From Nitrosopumilaceae archaeon (GTDB lineage: Archaea; Thermoproteota; Nitrososphaeria; Nitrososphaerales; Nitrosopumilaceae), in contig OZ242376.1 of assembly GCA_965209085.1 (NCBI GenBank), forward strand, positions 1,629,555-1,693,554: a stretch of 64,000 nucleotides of DNA. The letters run 5' to 3'. The notes under the pieces were generated by a model. It had not been told where the DNA came from, did not search any database, and saw only the letters and a program-made list of their open reading frames with translations. Of this stretch, positions 9,429 through 53,490 are shown piece after piece. The position numbers and the translations under genes were made by a program. Position 1 is the stretch's first letter; each line of letters starts with the position of its first letter.

Positions 9429-10079
9429 TTAGTCCCACTTTGACCAAGCGGCCATCCACCTGTATGTCCAGGTGTTCAGCTTCACACCCAATGCCGCCAT
9501 CGTTACCGATAGCACTGCTCCGGCACCAGCACCTAACGCGACAGGACTATTGTAGAACTTTCCTACCTGCGGTTCGATTGGTGTCATGTATGGAGGCAAC
9601 GTTGGTCTTGGGTACTTGAACGCAGTCTCAAGTGGGTCTGCCACGGTAATTAGATTGACCATGTTGAACAGTGGTAAAGACATTCCAACCAGTACGCCAC
9701 CGAATAGTATCAGTGAGTGCTTGTTGCGTTTTGTTGCCCAGTATGCCAAATCCAACAGCATTGCTGATGGGAGCCAAACTGGAGTAACAATGAAGTCATA
9801 TGGATAACCAAGTGCAAACCATGCGCCCTTGGCAATCCACGTATACACTGTCATAATCAATGCGTAATACGTAGCTGTTCCTGGAACGCCAGTAAAGGTG
9901 AGATAATATGTCGCACCTACAACTAACATCAAAGTTTGCGATATTGAAAATATCGTAAACGATGTCCAAGCCCAGTCAGTATAGAAGATATAATCTCCCG
10001 CATTGATTGTCAATAGAGTCGAATTTACCGCAACTACAATTATGAAGAGGTAGTGGGTACATCGTCTAAGCCAGACCAT
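9429..10079 (-). CDS. amoA: Archaeal ammonia monooxygenase subunit A (216 aa)
   Basis: Canonical archaeal AmoA, MVWLRRCTHYLF...YRWMAAWSKWD; true start at ATG 10079. Confidence 0.99.
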   Translation of the reverse strand: MVWLRRCTHYLFIIVVAVNSTLLTINAGDYIFYTDWAWTSFTIFSISQTLMLVVGATYYLTFTGVPGTATYYALIMTVYTWIAKGAWFALGYPYDFIVTPVWLPSAMLLDLAYWATKRNKHSLILFGGVLVGMSLPLFNMVNLITVADPLETAFKYPRPTLPPYMTPIEPQVGKFYNSPVALGAGAGAVLSVTMAALGVKLNTWTYRWMAAWSKWD

Positions 10080-11812: not shown

Positions 11813-13005
11813 TAGACCTCATACATAATTAACCAAAAAATCAATTTTGGCAAATCGAAAGATCTATGATCTAGTATCAGGTGCGCATAGCATATGCCAA
11901 TCAGACAAACGCATGATCTCTAAACTGAAAAAGACGATCTTAAAGATGGGAAAGAAGAGTTCCATGCAGGAAAAAAGAATTTCCAATCAAAAAGAAAGAA
12001 TTTCCAAGCTGGAAGCAAAGAATCAACGCTACAAAAAAACGACTCTGAGCATCAATGATGACAAAAGACAGCATGTCGACAAATATTTGAACAAGGGAAT
12101 TGGGAATGATGTTCATCCATATGAAATGACAGGAATGAACCGTGAAGAATTTGAATGGATTCTAGAACGGTTCTGAAAAACCGTGGAAGATTCGTCAGAG
12201 ACTTCCCGCTTTTCAGAATATGTGGACAATCCTGAAAACATCTATATCCTTACCGTAAAGCAAGTTTTGTTTATCGTAGTGCCGCAAACGCAATAATCTC
12301 AAACCGGGAGCACTTGCGTTCATTGCAAACGTTGATCAGAGCACCATTAGCAGATATCTGACCTTTTCTGATGAGCAGTTGATGGATGTTCTTCCAACGG
12401 CTAAGAATATTGGTGCTGCAATACGGACAATACGTACAAGCGAGTTGTTTAAAAAATTCGTACCTGGCAGGGGCGGCGGCGAGATGTATCTTGATGCCAC
12501 GTTTGTACAGGTTCAAAGGCCGCAGGAGAATCCAGAGGCAGTATACTCTGGAAAACGCAAGAGGCACGTCTACAGCGTACCGATAGCCTCCAACAAAGAT
12601 GGAGTGGTAAATGACATTGGCGGTCCAGAAGAGGGCTCAGTACACGACATGGAGGTACTGCGGCGTAATCTGCCAAATTTTGGCAAATGGACCGATGGTA
12701 TGAAAAATCCGGACACGAAAAAAGAGCGCCAAATTATGCTATATACTGACAAGGGATATCTGTCCGTGGAAAAAGACTATCCTGGAATTATCTCAAAACA
12801 ACCGTACAAAAAACCAAAGGGCAGGGGATTGACAGAGGCAGAACGCGAATACAGCAAGAGGATCAGTCGTAAGCGCATAAAAATAGAGCATGCCATAAAC
12901 TGACTCAAATGGTTCCGTAGAATGAGTGCTGTATATGATGATACAATGGATGCGTTTTATACAGAAATCCAAGTGGTTACAGGACTGACCAATCTGCACA
13001 TGTCC
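11813..13005 (+). mobile_element. Decayed IS5-like (DDE_Tnp_4/ISL2-type) element with transposase pseudogene
   Basis: Left TIR TAGACCTCATACATAAT at 11813; fragments LDAT..QRP, YSGKRKRH, DKGY and RIKIEHAI; stops at 12174 and 12901 plus frameshifts. Confidence 0.85.
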
Positions 13006-13367
13006 AATTTGCATCAGAGAGTAACATTTCTGAATTTTACCGGCGTCTTGCAAAAAAGAGAGGATCATCCAAGGCCAAAGTTGCAGCAGCGGCCAAGATG
13101 CTTGATGTCATATTTGGTATGCTAAAGGATAGGAGTGAATTTGAAATACATCATAGTTAAAGCAACAAACCGCGGGTTAGACTTTGGAGATGTTACCCCG
13201 GTTGCATAACTGCGGTAAGCTTTAACATGTGGATAAAGATGGTTGTGGGATTAAATCCCGAATGGATAGATGTCTTTTCATCTTTTGGTTGGAAACAGAC
13301 ACATGGCGAAAGCCATACCGCATGACACAAAAAAGCAAGAAACCTTTAAAAAATATTCACATGAATA
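12999..13367 (+). mobile_element. IS110/IS1111-type relic: transposase C-terminus plus non-coding right end
   Basis: LAKKRGSSKAKVAAAAKMLDVIFGMLKDRSEF with stop at 13160; highly similar to 52233-52599; followed by the TIR remnant TGGTCTA at 13368-13374. Confidence 0.85.
13161..13330 (+). ncRNA. Putative bridge/seek RNA, copy 1
   Basis: Same two-loop architecture and guide segments as 52395-52560. Confidence 0.7.
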
Positions 13368-49606: not shown

Positions 49607-49686
49607 TAGACCTCATGCATAATCATTAAAATCAGTCATTTTTATTCGTAAAAATTGTGAATTTGGTCCATTATGCATGAAGTCTA
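49607..49686. mobile_element. MITE family B, intact 80-bp copy (empty target site)
   Basis: TIR TAGACCTCATGCATAAT / ATTATGCATGAAGTCTA; matches the IS5-like left end at 11813 in 16 of 17 nt. Confidence 0.85.
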
Positions 49687-49695
49687 TTATACTGT

Positions 49696-49742
49696 ATGGC
49701 TATTAATTCTCAAATTGAATGGATAAAAGCTACCTTTGATCC
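49696..49742 (+). pseudogene. Truncated duplicate of the DUF5131 5' end
   Basis: MAINSQIEWIKATFDP versus MAIDSQIEWTESTWNP at 52615. Confidence 0.7.
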
Positions 49743-50371: not shown

Positions 50372-51871
50372 GTAACTGTCTAGAGTTTTGAAGTTAAATT
50401 GGATAGATATTCTTCCAAATAATCATGAAAGTTCAGATTCCTCAACCTGCACGTCTCCTTTATGCTCATCAATATCTTGTGAGCTTTGGCACCATCCTCT
50501 GAGCGATGACCATTTGTAATTTTACGTATTACGACATTTGGTCGAATCCCCCTCTCGGCGGTATTGTTGTGCCAGTCAGTACCCGTTTTTAGAAACGTAA
50601 AGAGCATATCTTTTTCTCGCCTGATTCTTTTTACAAATCTGATACAGTTTTTCTCCTTGTACGGCTTTGAGATCAGTCTGTCAATTCTTACCTCTAGATT
50701 TTTCTTGATTTTAAGCCTCTTGATCTTGCTTTGTATCTTTGCAGCATCCTGTGAGTCGTAGAGTATTTTTTGCAGACGTTTTGCAAATGGTTCAAACTCT
50801 TTGCCGGGGTTTTTATGATCTATTGTACCCAGGATCTCTCTTTTATAGTGAACATGGCAACGCTGATGTGTTTTACCAGCATAATTCCATGCTGGCCATG
50901 AATCGCTTGTAACGTTTCCCTCGTATCCTTTTAGTATTTTTTTTGGTACCTCGCGTCCACGTGATTTGTCAATTTCATATATGATGGTCCATTTTCCAAC
51001 AAACACCCACAACCAGTGGTTGATGCCATCAATCCGCCAGCTGGTCTCATCTCCGTGTATGTTTAATTCTTGTTTTAATTCATTTATCATCTGCTCGTAC
51101 AGCGAACCAAACGCTATCGCCATTTTTGTTATCACGTGGTTTATGGTGGAAGGTGTCACGTGTATCGAATACATTGTATTTACCAGTCGTGATATTTTTA
51201 CATATGAAATTCCCAATAATTTGAGTGAGACGATAAACACTCCCAATCTGATCCCAAACCTACTGTTTGGAAGTGCGGTGTATATTTTTGGTGTGATTGT
51301 CTTTTTACAGTGTTTACAATATCTTCGATATATCGTATATTCTGTATTGTACGTCTTTGCTGGAATAATATCCTCCACCGTACGGGTGTATTTGTCGATG
51401 ATTTTTGAGAGCTTGTTTCCACATCCACTGCACATCTTTTGATCCACATTTGTTTTATTGTCGATTCTGATGGGTTTTTTTCTGCTGGTTCTTGTATGAT
51501 CAGAGTATTTTCTTTCTGTAAGAGTTTTGGAAATGTTGGGTTTTGCATGGATATTCTTTGCGACAAGTTCTTTTACTGCAAATTTTAGATCATCTATTTC
51601 TTTTTGTTGATCTGCAGATTTTTTTTCAAGCATGGAACATTTTTCCTCAGATGCAGAATATTTGCTTTTCAGATCTGTAATCTCGCTTTTCTGTCGTTTA
51701 TTGATACGTTGTAACTGCGCAATTTCTTGCGATACATAATGTGACCTTTGGTTGTGGTCATTTTGGTCACGTTCTGACAACAATTCGTTATGTTTGTGCC
51801 CGATCCATAAAGATCACGGTGGAAAATACTCGATCATATGATCAAATCGCTTCAAAACTCTAGACAGTTAC
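50372..51871 (-). mobile_element. IS66-family element, 1500 bp, single ORF
   Basis: Perfect 22-bp TIR GTAACTGTCTAGAGTTTTGAAG; 8-bp TSD GAATATTT at 50364-50371 and 51872-51879. Confidence 0.95.
50380..51783 (-). CDS. IS66 transposase (TnpC-type)
   Basis: Coiled-coil and Zn finger; HGDETSW, WLWVF, QRCHVH..R and NNTAERGIRP.V..RK. Confidence 0.95.
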   Translation of the reverse strand: MLSERDQNDHNQRSHYVSQEIAQLQRINKRQKSEITDLKSKYSASEEKCSMLEKKSADQQKEIDDLKFAVKELVAKNIHAKPNISKTLTERKYSDHTRTSRKKPIRIDNKTNVDQKMCSGCGNKLSKIIDKYTRTVEDIIPAKTYNTEYTIYRRYCKHCKKTITPKIYTALPNSRFGIRLGVFIVSLKLLGISYVKISRLVNTMYSIHVTPSTINHVITKMAIAFGSLYEQMINELKQELNIHGDETSWRIDGINHWLWVFVGKWTIIYEIDKSRGREVPKKILKGYEGNVTSDSWPAWNYAGKTHQRCHVHYKREILGTIDHKNPGKEFEPFAKRLQKILYDSQDAAKIQSKIKRLKIKKNLEVRIDRLISKPYKEKNCIRFVKRIRREKDMLFTFLKTGTDWHNNTAERGIRPNVVIRKITNGHRSEDGAKAHKILMSIKETCRLRNLNFHDYLEEYLSNLTSKL

Positions 51872-52083
51872 GAATATTTTAATTGGTCCAAATACCCAAA
51901 TGTTGAGAAATTATATCATATGTTTTGATACTAAAAATAGAAAATTGAACATTGATTAAATCAGATCTTCTCTATGATGATTTTAACTTGTTCGCTATCG
52001 TACTTTTCAATAGACCTTATGCATAATCATACAAATCCGTCATTTTTATTCGTAAAAATTATGAATTTAGTCCATTATGCATA

Positions 52084-52599
52084 ACCATATGTGAAAAGAG
52101 ATTCCAAGACCACAGATGGTTCTGGTCTTGCCCCATCGGTTCGTAATTTAGCAGATGTGGTCCATCACGGACATGTACCAAAAAGAGGAAAGCCGGATGA
52201 TGCGGTGGGCACTGGTGGAAGCTGTTACCGCCCATGTCCGATTTGCATCAGAGAGTAACATTTCTGAATTTTACTGACATCTTGCAAAAAAGAGAGGATC
52301 ATCCAAGGCCAAAGTTGCAGTAGCAGCCAAGATGTTTGATATCATATTTTGTATGCTAAAGGATAGGAGTGAATTTGAAATACATCATAGTTAAAGCAAC
52401 AAACCGCGGGTTAGACTTTGGGGATGTTACCCCGGATGCATAACTGCGGTAAGCTTTAACATGTGGGTAAAGATGGTTGTGGGATTAAATCCCGAATGGA
52501 TAGATGTCTTTTACCATTTGACTGAAAACAGACACATGGCGAAAGCCATATCGCATGACACAAAAAAGCAAGAAACTTTTAAAAGTATTCACATGGATA
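52084..52599 (+). mobile_element. Non-autonomous, internally deleted IS110/IS1111-type element
   Basis: Sub-terminal IR ATGTGAA/TTCACAT; TA core at both ends; transposase C-terminal relic GLAPSVRN.AD..HHG..KRG, MRWALVEAV, AKKRGSSKAKVA. Confidence 0.88.
52395..52560 (+). ncRNA. Putative bridge/seek RNA (target-binding loop plus donor-binding loop)
   Basis: Loop 1 guides TAGACTTTG and ATGCATA match the MITE TIR; loop 2 guides ATGGTTG and ATGGATA match the element's circle junction; 3' ATGGC GAAA GCCAT hairpin. Confidence 0.78.
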
Positions 52600-52614
52600 A
52601 GGTCTAATATAATT

Positions 52615-53490
52615 ATGGCTATTGATTCTCAAATTGAATGGACGGAATCTACGTGGAATCCATCTACAGGATGTTCTAAAATTTCTCCGGGTTGTGCCAA
52701 TTGTTATGCTGAAAAATTATCAAAGAGACTTCAATTAATGAAGGTAAATAAATATCGTAAAGGATTTCAATATGTAGAACATGATAATGAAATCAATACT
52801 CCGTTAAAATGGTCTAAACCTAGAAAAATTTTTGTAAATAGCATGTCAGATCTTTTTCACGAACGTGCAAGTATTAATTTTATAAGAAAATGTTTTATTG
52901 TCATGATAAAAGCAAATCAACATACATATCAAATTTTAACTAAAAGACCAAAAAAAATGAAAGATTTTTCATATTTATTTCATAAAGAATTTGAGCAAAA
53001 AATTCCGTCACATATTTGGATGGGTGTAAGTATTGAAAATCAAGAATCTGATTGGAGGGTTGATGAATTACGTGATATTGATTGCTCTACTAGATTCATA
53101 AGTTTTGAACCATTATTAGGTTCAATTAAAAATATCAATCTTAAAGGAATTAACTGGGCTATAATTGGAGGCGAAAGTGGCATCAAACACAGAGAAATTA
53201 AAAAAGAATGGGTTCTCAATTTAATTAGACAGTGTAAAAAACAAAACGTTCCTGTGTTTTTTAAACAATGGGGAGGTGTAAGACCCAAATCAGGCGGCAG
53301 AGAGATTGATGGGGAAAAATTTAGTGAATATCCTTTAATCAAAATTACAAAAAAATCCAAGAAACAATTGGACATTTTATTGGAAAAAATTAATACCATG
53401 GATCAAAATGTACCATATCAAATACCATCACAAATTCCAATCCCACCTAAATTGATTCCAATGAGAAACGCATTATCCAACCACTGTTAA
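52615..53490 (+). CDS. DUF5131 / phage Gp37-Gp68 family protein
   Basis: IEWTESTWNP.TGC.KISPGC.NCYA, IFVNSMSDLFH, ILTKRP, GGESG and FFKQWGG; start at ATG 52615. Confidence 0.92.
   Translation: MAIDSQIEWTESTWNPSTGCSKISPGCANCYAEKLSKRLQLMKVNKYRKGFQYVEHDNEINTPLKWSKPRKIFVNSMSDLFHERASINFIRKCFIVMIKANQHTYQILTKRPKKMKDFSYLFHKEFEQKIPSHIWMGVSIENQESDWRVDELRDIDCSTRFISFEPLLGSIKNINLKGINWAIIGGESGIKHREIKKEWVLNLIRQCKKQNVPVFFKQWGGVRPKSGGREIDGEKFSEYPLIKITKKSKKQLDILLEKINTMDQNVPYQIPSQIPIPPKLIPMRNALSNHC

What the first reader, a model, noticed from the sequence alone, without database searches (positions are those of the whole stretch)
52011..52606. Archaeal IS110-type bridge/seek RNA programmed against the terminal repeat of another transposon family
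Seen in sequence: (1) An 80-bp MITE starting at 52011 (TAGACCTTATGCATAAT) is interrupted at ...TTATGCA-TA (52083). Its last 7 nt, AGGTCTA, reappear at 52600-52606, and rejoining gives a perfect 17-bp TIR and the same 80-bp length as the empty copy at 49607-49686. (2) The 516-bp insert is bounded by a TA core, has sub-terminal IRs ATGTGAA/TTCACAT, and carries an IS110 transposase C-terminal relic followed by ~200 nt of non-coding DNA. (3) That DNA folds into two loops. Loop 1 is stem ACCGCGGGTT/AACTGCGGT, left guide TAGACTTTG (52412-52420), hairpin GGG-ATGTTA-CCC and right guide ATGCATA (52436-52442). These match the target read on the bottom strand, TAGACCT-TA-TGCAT, with two wobble pairs. Loop 2 is stem GGTAAAGA/TCTTTTACC, left guide ATGGTTG (52473-52479), hairpin GGGAT-TAA-ATCCC and right guide ATGGATA (52496-52502). 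These match the predicted circle junction ATGGT-TA-TCCAT. Both left guides read the core TA as TG. Established knowledge: IS110-family recombinases use a bispecific bridge RNA; IS1111-group members encode it downstream of the transposase, and some (IS4321/IS5075) target other transposons' inverted repeats. Inference: this is a thaumarchaeal RNA-guided recombination system aimed at abundant IS5/MITE ends, with target, donor, guides and empty site all readable here.
Basis: partly seen in the sequence, partly recalled or inferred. Interest (0 to 1): 0.95.

Follow-up and report, generated by a model that had tools for sequence, protein, structure and literature searches.

The report
Archaeal IS110 relic with bridge RNA
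A broken copy of an RNA-guided jumping gene sits inside the end of another small transposon in an ammonia-oxidizing archaeon, and its guide RNA gene is written to find exactly that kind of end; the mechanism is of a known type, seen here in a new group of organisms.

Summary
An 80-bp MITE (52011-52083 plus 52600-52606) is split at a TA by a 516-bp insert. The insert is an internal-deletion derivative of a 1335-bp IS110-family element of the IS1111 type. That element has 7 full-length copies in this genome, 2 with an intact 373-aa transposase.

The 3' non-coding end carries a ~140-nt RNA gene with two internal loops. Twenty copies occur in this genome. The RNA lies beside transposase homologs in other Nitrososphaeria and has no Rfam family.

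Stems are supported by covariation. The loop segments vary between elements and track each element's own flanks and ends: in 21 loci, 0 of 10,000 permutations reached the observed match.

In this genome, family A sits at one TA in the inverted repeat of an IS5-like element and its MITEs. Family B has the same ends but a different target loop, and sits at the end of an IS630-like element.

Caveats: this copy is defective; no RNA data exist; the "TA read as TG" detail is doubtful, because TG is an invariant hairpin base; the core register differs between families.

This is a new archaeal member of a known kind (bridge/seek RNA; IS4321/IS5075-style targeting of transposon ends). Interest is moderate.

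The parts
52011..52083 (.). Left 73 nt of the 80-bp MITE (derivative of an IS5-like element). It ends with the target half-site ...ATGCA and the core TA (52082-52083).
52600..52606 (.). Last 7 nt of the MITE (AGGTCTA), the other target half-site.
52084..52599 (+). Internal-deletion derivative of the 1335-bp IS110-family (IS1111-type) element 'A'. It keeps element positions 1-37 joined to 859-1335, and 52598-52599 is the second TA.
   Evidence: 92% identity over 1-37 and 93.5% over 859-1335.
52084..52121 (+). Retained left end, with the sub-terminal repeat CCATATGTGAA (ATGTGAA at 52089-52095). It also holds an inner site, AGATGGTT at 52114-52121, with the same sense as the 5' donor-loop segment. 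The deletion joint lies just after 52121.
52124..52394 (+). Frameshifted relic of the C-terminal part of the transposase (Transposase_20 region). The stop codon TAA is at 52392-52394, inside stem P1 of the RNA.
52384..52525 (+). Bridge/seek-RNA gene, matching covariance model R1 at 111.4 bits. P1 is 52390-52397 with 52453-52460; P2 is 52403-52409 with 52444-52450; the target-loop hairpin is 52419-52434; the donor-loop hairpin is 52480-52494.
52412..52418 (+). 5' target-loop guide TAGACTT, complementary to the top strand of the right flank AGGTCTA with one U-G wobble. The invariant TG follows at 52419-52420.
52436..52442 (+). 3' target-loop guide ATGCATA, same sense as the left flank plus the core TA. 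The intact master copies read CTGCATA here.
52473..52479 (+). 5' donor-loop segment ATGGTTG. ATGGT is complementary to the left end ACCAT, and the segment is identical in sense to the inner left-end site.
52496..52502 (+). 3' donor-loop guide ATGGATA, same sense as the right end ...CACATGGA plus the core TA.
52588..52599 (+). Right end TTCACATGGATA: the sub-terminal repeat followed by the core TA.
49607..49686 (.). Uninterrupted paralogous 80-bp MITE. It reads TG, not TA, at the position that is occupied in the other copy.
12997..13367 (+). Second copy in the window: a 3' fragment of element A (positions 966-1335) with its RNA gene at 13150-13291. Its right flank is TGGTCTA.

Best explanation
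The insert is a non-autonomous deletion derivative of an IS1111-type IS110-family insertion sequence of an ammonia-oxidizing archaeon.

The family's DEDD/serine recombinase is inferred to work with a ~140-nt RNA encoded between its stop codon and the right end. That RNA has two internal loops.

In the target loop, the 5' strand is complementary to the top strand of the right flank. The 3' strand has the sense of the left flank plus the core TA. In the donor loop, the 5' strand is complementary to the left end, and the 3' strand has the sense of the right end plus TA.

The RNA therefore bridges the joined ends of an excised circle to a TA inside the 17-bp inverted repeat of an IS5-like element and its 80-bp MITEs. 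This gives oriented, site-specific insertion.

Shown here: anatomy, copies, insertion sites, fold covariation, and guide/flank covariation. Inferred from the published bacterial systems: the RNA is made, binds the recombinase, and recombination goes through a circle. Whether this defective copy still supplies RNA or can be moved in trans is open.
For: Protein. The parent ORF scores 223.9 bits against NF033542 (cut-off 140) and carries PF01548 plus PF02371. D, E, D, D and S align with the solved ISCro4 transposase (9t56) in the alignment shown; IS621 (8wt6) was also hit, but its alignment was not displayed.

Sites. 11 of 12 left ends abut ATGCATA, and 14 of 17 right flanks read NNNTCTA. The target is the inverted repeat of a DDE_Tnp_4 element with about 25 copies, and there are 120 such repeat ends in the genome.

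RNA. 20 copies occur in this genome, all inside element copies. 95.4% of cells are paired against 32-45% for slid partners; 14 of 25 pairs change on both sides; 0 of 500 shuffles reach the observed value.

Guide covariation across 21 loci. The 3' target 7-mer matches its own left flank at 5.8/7, against 3.2/7 for other loci. The longest exact run of the 5' target loop is 6.2 for its own flank against 3.8. In each test, 0 of 10,000 permutations reach the observed value.

Family B in this genome. It has the same ends and donor loop but a different target loop. Its CGCAGTATA matches 9/9 the end of an IS630-like element that adjoins all 4 copies.

Within family A. All 4 of 4 copies with guide TAGAGTT lie at TAGAGTT-type flanks.

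Another genome (G100). 10 copies share one guide pair; their flanks read ATTACA in 8 and ATTATA in 2.

Guide order. The top-strand complement comes first, as published for IS1111 seekRNAs (passages of PMC11187229).
Against: - No expression or biochemical data exist for any member.
- The single-sequence minimum-energy fold of this copy pairs part of the guides with each other (GUU/AAC and CUUUGGGG/CCCCGG.A), so the loops are open only in the family consensus.
- The position of the core relative to the invariant TG differs by 0-3 nt between families.
- The 5' target loop matches poorly in 4 of 21 loci, with runs of 3-4 (L041, L042, L037, L054).
- The 3' guide is only 3-4/7 in 4 loci.
- Master copies of A have C, not A, at the first position of the 3' guide.
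- Ten C-variant copies lie at both C-type (6) and G-type (4) flanks, so discrimination at that position is loose.
- One copy (683412) lies at an unrelated left flank.
- This copy lacks 821 bp and its reading frame is broken.
Confidence: 0.85

Rival explanations
1. Fossil only. The family mechanism is as above, but this copy is inert debris. It was deleted in place after insertion, is neither transcribed into a working RNA nor mobilisable, and has no present role.
For: It is the only copy with this deletion. Its frame is broken. It differs by 6-8% from the intact copies. Many other 3' fragments of the element are plain truncations.
Against: Both ends, the inner left-end site and all RNA stems are intact. 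The RNA scores 111.4 bits, within the range of the intact copies at 112.5-115.4. Its guides fit its own site as well as or better than the masters' do. Family B suggests that coding-defective copies can spread.
Confidence: 0.45
2. Protein-directed targeting. The transposase or a host factor recognises the inverted repeat directly. The conserved downstream region would then be a 3' UTR, a terminator or a protein-binding end, and its matches to the flanks would be incidental.
For: No RNA or binding data exist here. The register of the 5' guide is inconsistent between families.
Against: Loop segments differ between closely related recombinases and follow each element's own flanks. Families A and B share ends and donor loops but differ in target loop and target. 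Stems show compensatory changes while the loops vary. Homologous bacterial systems were shown to be RNA-guided (passages read).
Confidence: 0.04
3. Chance or capture. The guide-like matches arise by chance in AT-rich DNA, or because the element picked up flank sequence by recombination.
For: The segments are short (7-9 nt) and AT-rich, and ATGCAT is a palindrome.
Against: 0 of 10,000 permutations reach the observed match for either guide. There are perfect 7/7 matches in 8 of 21 loci with unrelated sequences. The segments lie 150-190 nt inside the element at fixed structural positions.
Confidence: 0.02

Closest known systems
IS1111-group elements of the IS110 family with a seekRNA/bridge RNA in the right end (ISEc11, ISKpn4, ISPa11; Siddiquee et al. 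2024, PMC11187229; Durrant et al. 2024, PMC11208160)
   Same: DEDD transposase of about 330-370 aa. Sub-terminal inverted repeats. The longer non-coding region lies downstream of the gene. The RNA carries a top-strand complement 5' of a bottom-strand complement. Insertion is oriented and site-specific. Natural reprogramming occurs between relatives.
   Different: The host is archaeal (ammonia oxidizers). The RNA matches no Rfam family, and model R1 does not hit the two nearest non-class relatives tested, from a Halorubrum and a Rhizobium plasmid. The conserved Ser is followed by Ala where the papers describe SG/TG. A left-end inner site mirrors the 5' donor-loop segment; I do not know whether that is described elsewhere.
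[quoted passage not shown]
   Same: An IS110-family element whose preferred site is a fixed position, in one orientation, inside the terminal inverted repeat of another transposon family.
   Different: The targets here are IS5-like elements and MITEs, an IS630-like element, and in another genome the left end of another IS110 element. The host domain differs.
IS621 and ISCro4 bridge recombinases with solved structures (8wt6, 9t56)
   Same: Two-loop RNA logic with target and donor loops. Catalytic D, E, D, D and S align with ISCro4 in the alignment shown; IS621 was hit but its alignment was not displayed.
   Different: Sequence similarity is distant (E 8e-9 and 3e-6, C-terminal domain only). In those elements the RNA is in the left end and the guide order is reversed, according to passages read.
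ISPpu9 and its Ssr9 RNA in Pseudomonas putida (PMC12288879; abstract seen in a search listing only)
   Same: An IS110-family element inserted in repeated sequences, with an RNA gene downstream of the transposase and extra RNA-gene copies elsewhere in the genome.
   Different: A bacterial element that targets REP sequences. I did not read the paper.

Membership tests
IS110 family transposase (RNA-guided) | N-terminal DEDD RuvC-like domain plus a C-terminal Transposase_20 domain, with a whole-protein score above the curated cut-off | tested here: met
   For the intact copy L004:1707-2828(-): NF033542 scores 223.9 bits against a cut-off of 140. PF01548 scores 98.2 and PF02371 scores 81.3. The window copy keeps only the C-terminal relic.
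IS110 family transposase (RNA-guided) | Catalytic D, E, D, D and the C-terminal-domain Ser | tested here: met
   GMDVH, VMESS, KTDKRDA and GLAPSVRNSA align with the matching residues of ISCro4 (9t56). That these are the catalytic residues is recalled, not tested here.
IS1111 group | Sub-terminal inverted repeats of 7-17 bp | tested here: met
   CCATATGTGAA near the left end and TTCACATGG near the right end, set in from the TA. The 7-17 bp range comes from a passage of PMC11208160.
IS1111 group | The longer non-coding region, carrying the RNA, lies downstream of the transposase gene | tested here: met
   About 205 nt separate the stop codon from the right end. The left end to the ATG of MFVGMDVHKK is about 134 nt. 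The RNA model hits only the downstream region.
Bridge RNA / seekRNA | A structured RNA whose loop segments pair with both strands of the target and with the element ends, and co-vary with them | tested here: met
   The complementarity and covariation are computational; no RNA was observed.
Bridge RNA / seekRNA | The RNA is expressed, binds the recombinase and is required for transposition; a circular intermediate carries the joined ends | not testable with these tools
   No RNA run was listed for this stretch.
Any Rfam family | A match to a curated covariance model | tested here: not met
   cmscan of 51900-52700 at E up to 10 gave four chance-level matches, none on the RNA gene.
IS5 family (the target element and parent of the MITE) | A DDE transposase scoring above a curated IS5 model cut-off; short terminal inverted repeats | tested here: inconclusive
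   PF13359 DDE_Tnp_4 at 71 bits and PF01609 at 41.6 bits are above the Pfam cut-offs. The best NCBIfam IS5 model scores 60 bits against a cut-off of 140. Inverted repeats TAGAGTTCATGCATAAT and TAGACCTCATGCATAAT are present.

The most novel reading that the evidence does not exclude
A whole clade of IS1111-type elements in ammonia-oxidizing archaea lives by inserting into the ends of other transposons. The targets seen are IS5-like elements and MITEs, an IS630-like element, and even the left end of another IS110 element. Target loops are swapped while ends and donor loops stay the same, so coding-dead copies (family B, all 4 with one shared TAA) spread on a relative's recombinase.

The elements also carry a third guide-related feature that I did not see in the passages of the bridge/seek-RNA papers I read. 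A site 30-42 nt inside the left end has the same sense as the 5' donor-loop segment and co-varies with it more tightly than the terminal sequence does. This would point to an extra RNA-DNA contact, or a decoy, in donor recognition, excision or self-regulation.
Probability: 0.25. Interest if true: 0.7.

Novelty: new member of a known kind. Interest (0 to 1): 0.5.

Why it matters
This extends RNA-guided (bridge/seek RNA) recombination, by strong comparative evidence, to ammonia-oxidizing archaea.

It gives a ready covariance model and dozens of natural guide/target pairs, including pairs that differ only in the target loop. Those pairs are natural reprogramming experiments, and a source of small new recombinase/RNA orthologs to test.

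It also shows transposons using other transposons' ends as safe landing sites in small, streamlined genomes. That bears on how insertion sequences persist there.

The mechanism itself is not new.

Tried and rejected
**Rfam.** The scan of the region gave nothing relevant.

**Single-sequence folds.** The 216-nt fold does not reproduce loop 2. I relied on the family consensus instead.

**One fixed register for the core.** I tried to find a single register for the core relative to the invariant TG, and found none. A places N7 directly before TG. B and L032 have two more bases. L033, L038, L043 and L039 have one. G100 family 1 has three.

**Guide variant against flank type.** The Fisher test within family A gave p = 0.07 on the 4/0 versus 3/6 table. 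The tenth C-variant copy, read in the same call, makes it 4/0 versus 4/6; I did not recompute. The result is suggestive only, and the copies are not independent.

**RNA evidence.** No RNA holder was listed.

**Public contigs.** Laying the contigs of four runs on 51500-53100 showed no contig joining across the insert and no usable empty allele. The region is repetitive and the pieces are short.

**Relatives outside the class.** Model R1 gave no hit on the two nearest relatives tested, Halorubrum and Rhizobium plasmid loci. That is two loci only, so it says little.

**Named relatives.** The search for related loci in genome contigs returned 3 partial relatives, named Nitrososphaeraceae or Nitrosopolaris. 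I used them only for naming the group.

**Rows dropped before the 21-locus test.**
- L039 (both full copies), L055, L058 and L059: no left end found by my pattern.
- L047 and L051: no right end found with the 7-mer.
- L048: target loop deleted.
- L057: ends unclear.
- window:13150: a fragment without a left end.
- L044 and L060: no RNA hit. L060 is cut by the contig end.

**Rows not evaluated.** Two rows (L084, L086) had other guides and were not evaluated.

**Literature searches for a prior description in ammonia-oxidizing archaea.** None was found in the held library.

**Unpublished genome.** G282 is counted in the tally only.

Full report
**What is at the site.** TAGACCTTATGCATAAT begins at 52011. 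The MITE runs to ...ATTATGCATA at 52083. A 516-nt insert follows (52084-52599), and then AGGTCTA at 52600-52606. Removing the insert and one TA gives ATTATGCATAAGGTCTA, the exact reverse complement of the left 17-mer, and a length of 80 nt. The uninterrupted MITE at 49607-49686 is also 80 nt.

That second MITE is a paralog rather than an empty allele. Both MITEs lie just upstream of the start of a DUF5131 reading frame: MAI(N/D)SQIEW, with Pfam PF07505 for the complete one. At the position of the occupied TA, the paralog reads TG.

**What the insert is.** A search of the organism's own 1.69-Mb genome found 35 matching stretches. BLAST with a full-length copy shows a 1335-bp element, here called A.
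- 7 copies are full length.
- 2 copies are interrupted by other insertions.
- 1 copy is truncated, and 1 is a lone left end.
- 7 copies are 3' fragments.
- The window copy keeps element positions 1-37 and 859-1335.

Two of the 7 full-length copies have an open 375-codon frame. The 373-aa product scores 223.9 bits against NCBIfam NF033542, 'IS110 family RNA-guided transposase', whose cut-off is 140. It also carries DEDD_Tnp_IS110 and Transposase_20. Its nearest solved relatives are the ISCro4 and IS621 transposases. The D, E, D, D and Ser positions align with ISCro4 in the alignment shown.

The element has sub-terminal inverted repeats (CCATATGTGAA / TTCACATGG). About 205 nt of non-coding DNA follow the stop codon. 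Both features mark the IS1111 group in the passages I read.

The genome encodes archaeal AmoA. The relatives that carry names are Nitrososphaeraceae or Nitrosopolaris. So 'thaumarchaeal' is right.

**Where the copies sit.**
- Of 12 left ends, 11 are preceded by ...ATGCATA.
- Of 17 right ends, 14 are followed by NNNTCTA (AGGTCTA, CGGTCTA, AACTCTA, ACCTCTA, TGGTCTA). Three are followed by one-change variants.
- One copy (683412) has an unrelated left flank.

The site is one TA at positions 8-9 of the inverted repeat of a ~1.36-kb element with about 25 copies. The ORF of that element has DDE_Tnp_4 and DDE_Tnp_1 domains. It is IS5-like, but below the NCBIfam IS5 cut-offs. Its ends read TAGAGTTCATGCATAAT and TAGACCTCATGCATAAT.

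The genome holds 120 such ends within 3 mismatches: 66 with TA, 47 with CA, 6 with TG and 1 with AA at positions 8-9. Thirty-five unoccupied sites fit TGCATA-NNNTCTA.

**The RNA.** Transposase homologs occur in 78 of 401 sampled genomes of the class, counting this genome. Downstream of nearly all 29 loci fetched there is a conserved ~140-nt segment.

A MAFFT alignment of 22 of these gives a consensus fold with five helices:
- P1, which contains the stop codon.
- P2, which closes an internal loop holding a hairpin.
- A second stem, which closes a second internal loop holding a hairpin.

On this structure-blind alignment, 95.4% of cells pair, against 32-45% when partners are slid. Of 25 pairs, 14 change on both sides. 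No shuffle of 500 reaches the observed values.

A covariance model built from the alignment (R1) gave these results:
- 20 copies in this genome, all inside copies of A or B. Two of them lie in the window, at 52384-52525 and 13150-13291.
- The 7 fetched loci that were not in the seed.
- Matches in 20 of 151 sampled genomes of the class.

Rfam has no match. R1 does not hit the two nearest relatives outside the class that I tested.

I extracted them from the model alignment for every locus whose two ends I could place: 21 loci, with the dropped rows listed under Tried and rejected.
- The 7-mer of the 3' target-loop strand equals the element's own left flank plus TA at 5.8 of 7 positions on average: 7/7 in 8 loci and 6/7 in 6. 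Against other loci's flanks it scores 3.2 of 7.
- The 5' target-loop strand shares a longest exact run of 6.2 nt with the bottom strand of its own target, against 3.8 for other loci.
- No permutation of 10,000 reaches either sum.

Related loci are not independent, but their guides differ. The donor loop follows the ends in the same way. The one locus with different ends is L050 (TTTGTATATGGAC ... CATAAGGTAA). It has matching donor segments (ACAAA.., AAGGTAA) and AA instead of TA in both 3' strands.

Three further tests inside single genomes agree.

*First test.* This genome has a second family, B, 65% identical to A, with 4 copies. B has the same ends and the same donor-loop segments as A but a different target loop. 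All 4 copies abut the left inverted repeat of a 1.1-kb IS630-like element (DDE_3). The loop's CGCAGTATA matches that end plus TA at 9 of 9 positions. Its 3' guide fits the variable other flank only weakly (6/7, 4/7, 3/7).

*Second test.* Family A has two guide variants. All 4 copies with TAGAGTT lie at flanks whose complement is TAGAGTT: three match 7/7 and one is shifted by a base. The 10 copies with TAGACTT lie at TAGACC-type flanks in 6 cases and at TAGAG-type flanks in 4. The numbers are small (p = 0.07 as first counted).

*Third test.* In genome G100, 10 copies share the guides TTGTAATTAT and TCTAATA. Their right flanks read ATTACA in 8 and ATTATA in 2. Their left flanks read TCCAATA, TCTAATA or ATGAATA. 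A second G100 family, with guides TTTTCACAT and AAACTATA, sits inside the left end of the first (AACTA-TA-TGTGAA).

Landing in other transposons' ends is therefore common in this clade. The right flanks of L038 and L043, and both flanks of L042 and L050, in other genomes, also resemble TAGAC/TAGAG-type ends.

**What is doubtful.**
T and G at those two places are invariant in 22 of 22 sequences. In the donor loop they form a U-G pair and a G-C pair at the hairpin base in 22 of 22. The two bases between ATGGT and that TG vary among families (TG, AC, AT, GC, AG, AA, CC, CA) although the core is TA. A U-A plus G-T pairing with the core after the hairpin base opens is chemically possible, but it is not shown.
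- The core's position relative to the TG differs by 0-3 nt among families. I could not explain this.
- The minimum-energy fold of this one sequence pairs part of the two target guides with each other. Those pairs are not conserved.
- No RNA data exist.
- The window copy is defective and is the only copy with its deletion. It may have been deleted in place. Its RNA gene and both ends are intact.

**How it compares.** Both founding papers describe this arrangement for bacterial IS1111-type elements. I read passages; the papers are PMC11187229 with its preprint, and PMC11208160. They report an RNA in the right end, with the top-strand complement 5' of the bottom-strand match, and natural reprogramming. 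[quoted passage not shown] I saw that work only as a cited reference.

A preprint counts 662 archaeal IS110 recombinases but, in the passages I saw, does not treat their RNAs. My three searches found no description for ammonia-oxidizing archaea.

**Verdict.** The finding is a new archaeal member of a known kind, and interest is moderate.

The most unusual leftover is the left-end inner site. At 30-42 nt from the left end, a sequence (T[C/T]AGA plus 7 nt) has the same sense as the 5' donor-loop segment. It matches that segment 7/7 in 10 of 20 loci and at least 6/7 in 17 of 20; one of those 17, L050, matches elsewhere in the left end. No permutation of 10,000 reaches the observed sum. The terminal sequence itself often differs from the guide by one base. 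I have no tested explanation for this.

Noticed in passing
window 52114-52121; left ends of L032-L056 at element positions 30-42: An inner left-end site (T[C/T]AGA plus 7 nt) has the same sense as the 5' donor-loop segment of the RNA and co-varies with it: 7/7 in 10 of 20 loci and at least 6/7 in 17 of 20. It follows the guide more closely than the terminal ACCAT does, and it is an inverted copy of the terminal sequence. Its function is unknown.
   Followed up: partly
G000:C1 666.6k, 730.3k, 856.5k and 1172.2k (L018-L020, L022): A second IS110 family, B, has the same ends and donor loop as A but another target loop. All 4 copies lie at the TA beside the left inverted repeat of a 1.1-kb IS630-like (DDE_3) element. 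All 4 share one in-frame TAA (YIASL*AINDY). They probably spread after losing coding capacity, perhaps on A's transposase.
   Followed up: partly
L077, L079-L082, L087 (genome G100): One IS110 family is inserted in the left sub-terminal repeat (AACTA-TA-TGTGAA) of another IS110 family. Its guides match that site.
   Followed up: partly
L039:2739-2905; G000:C1:670232: A right end of an element is joined directly to the middle of an RNA gene, at ...TA|ACTGCAG, just after the 3' target guide. A fragment in this genome also starts at that point. The RNA gene itself contains a perfect half-site for its own 3' guide, which may cause self-directed rearrangements.
   Followed up: no
window 49607-49740 and 52011-52650: The MITE plus the first codons of a DUF5131 gene occur twice. 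The copy at 49696 is a short truncated frame, and the one at 52615-53490 is complete (PF07505, 295 bits).
   Followed up: partly
whole genome: Of 120 IS5-like/MITE inverted-repeat ends, 47 carry CA and 66 carry TA at the position used as core. The commonest uninterrupted variants are the CA ones. This could mean that CA ends are poor substrates, but I did not test it.
   Followed up: no
window 50380-51783 (-): An intact 467-aa IS66-family transposase (NF033517, 233 bits against a cut-off of 180) lies next to the MITE.
   Followed up: partly
window 9486-10034 (-): An archaeal ammonia monooxygenase subunit A gene (PF12942, 394.7 bits) lies in the window.
   Followed up: no
G000:C1:728323, 959195, 794907: Three 3' fragments of element A are preceded by the same ~70-nt sequence. 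Another repeated element has apparently inserted into A at positions 1067 (twice) and 1277. Two of these loci look like one duplicated segment.
   Followed up: no
transposase residues ~305-315 (GLAPSVRNSA): The conserved Ser is followed by Ala in families A and B, where the seekRNA paper describes an SG or TG motif. I did not check this across the clade.
   Followed up: no
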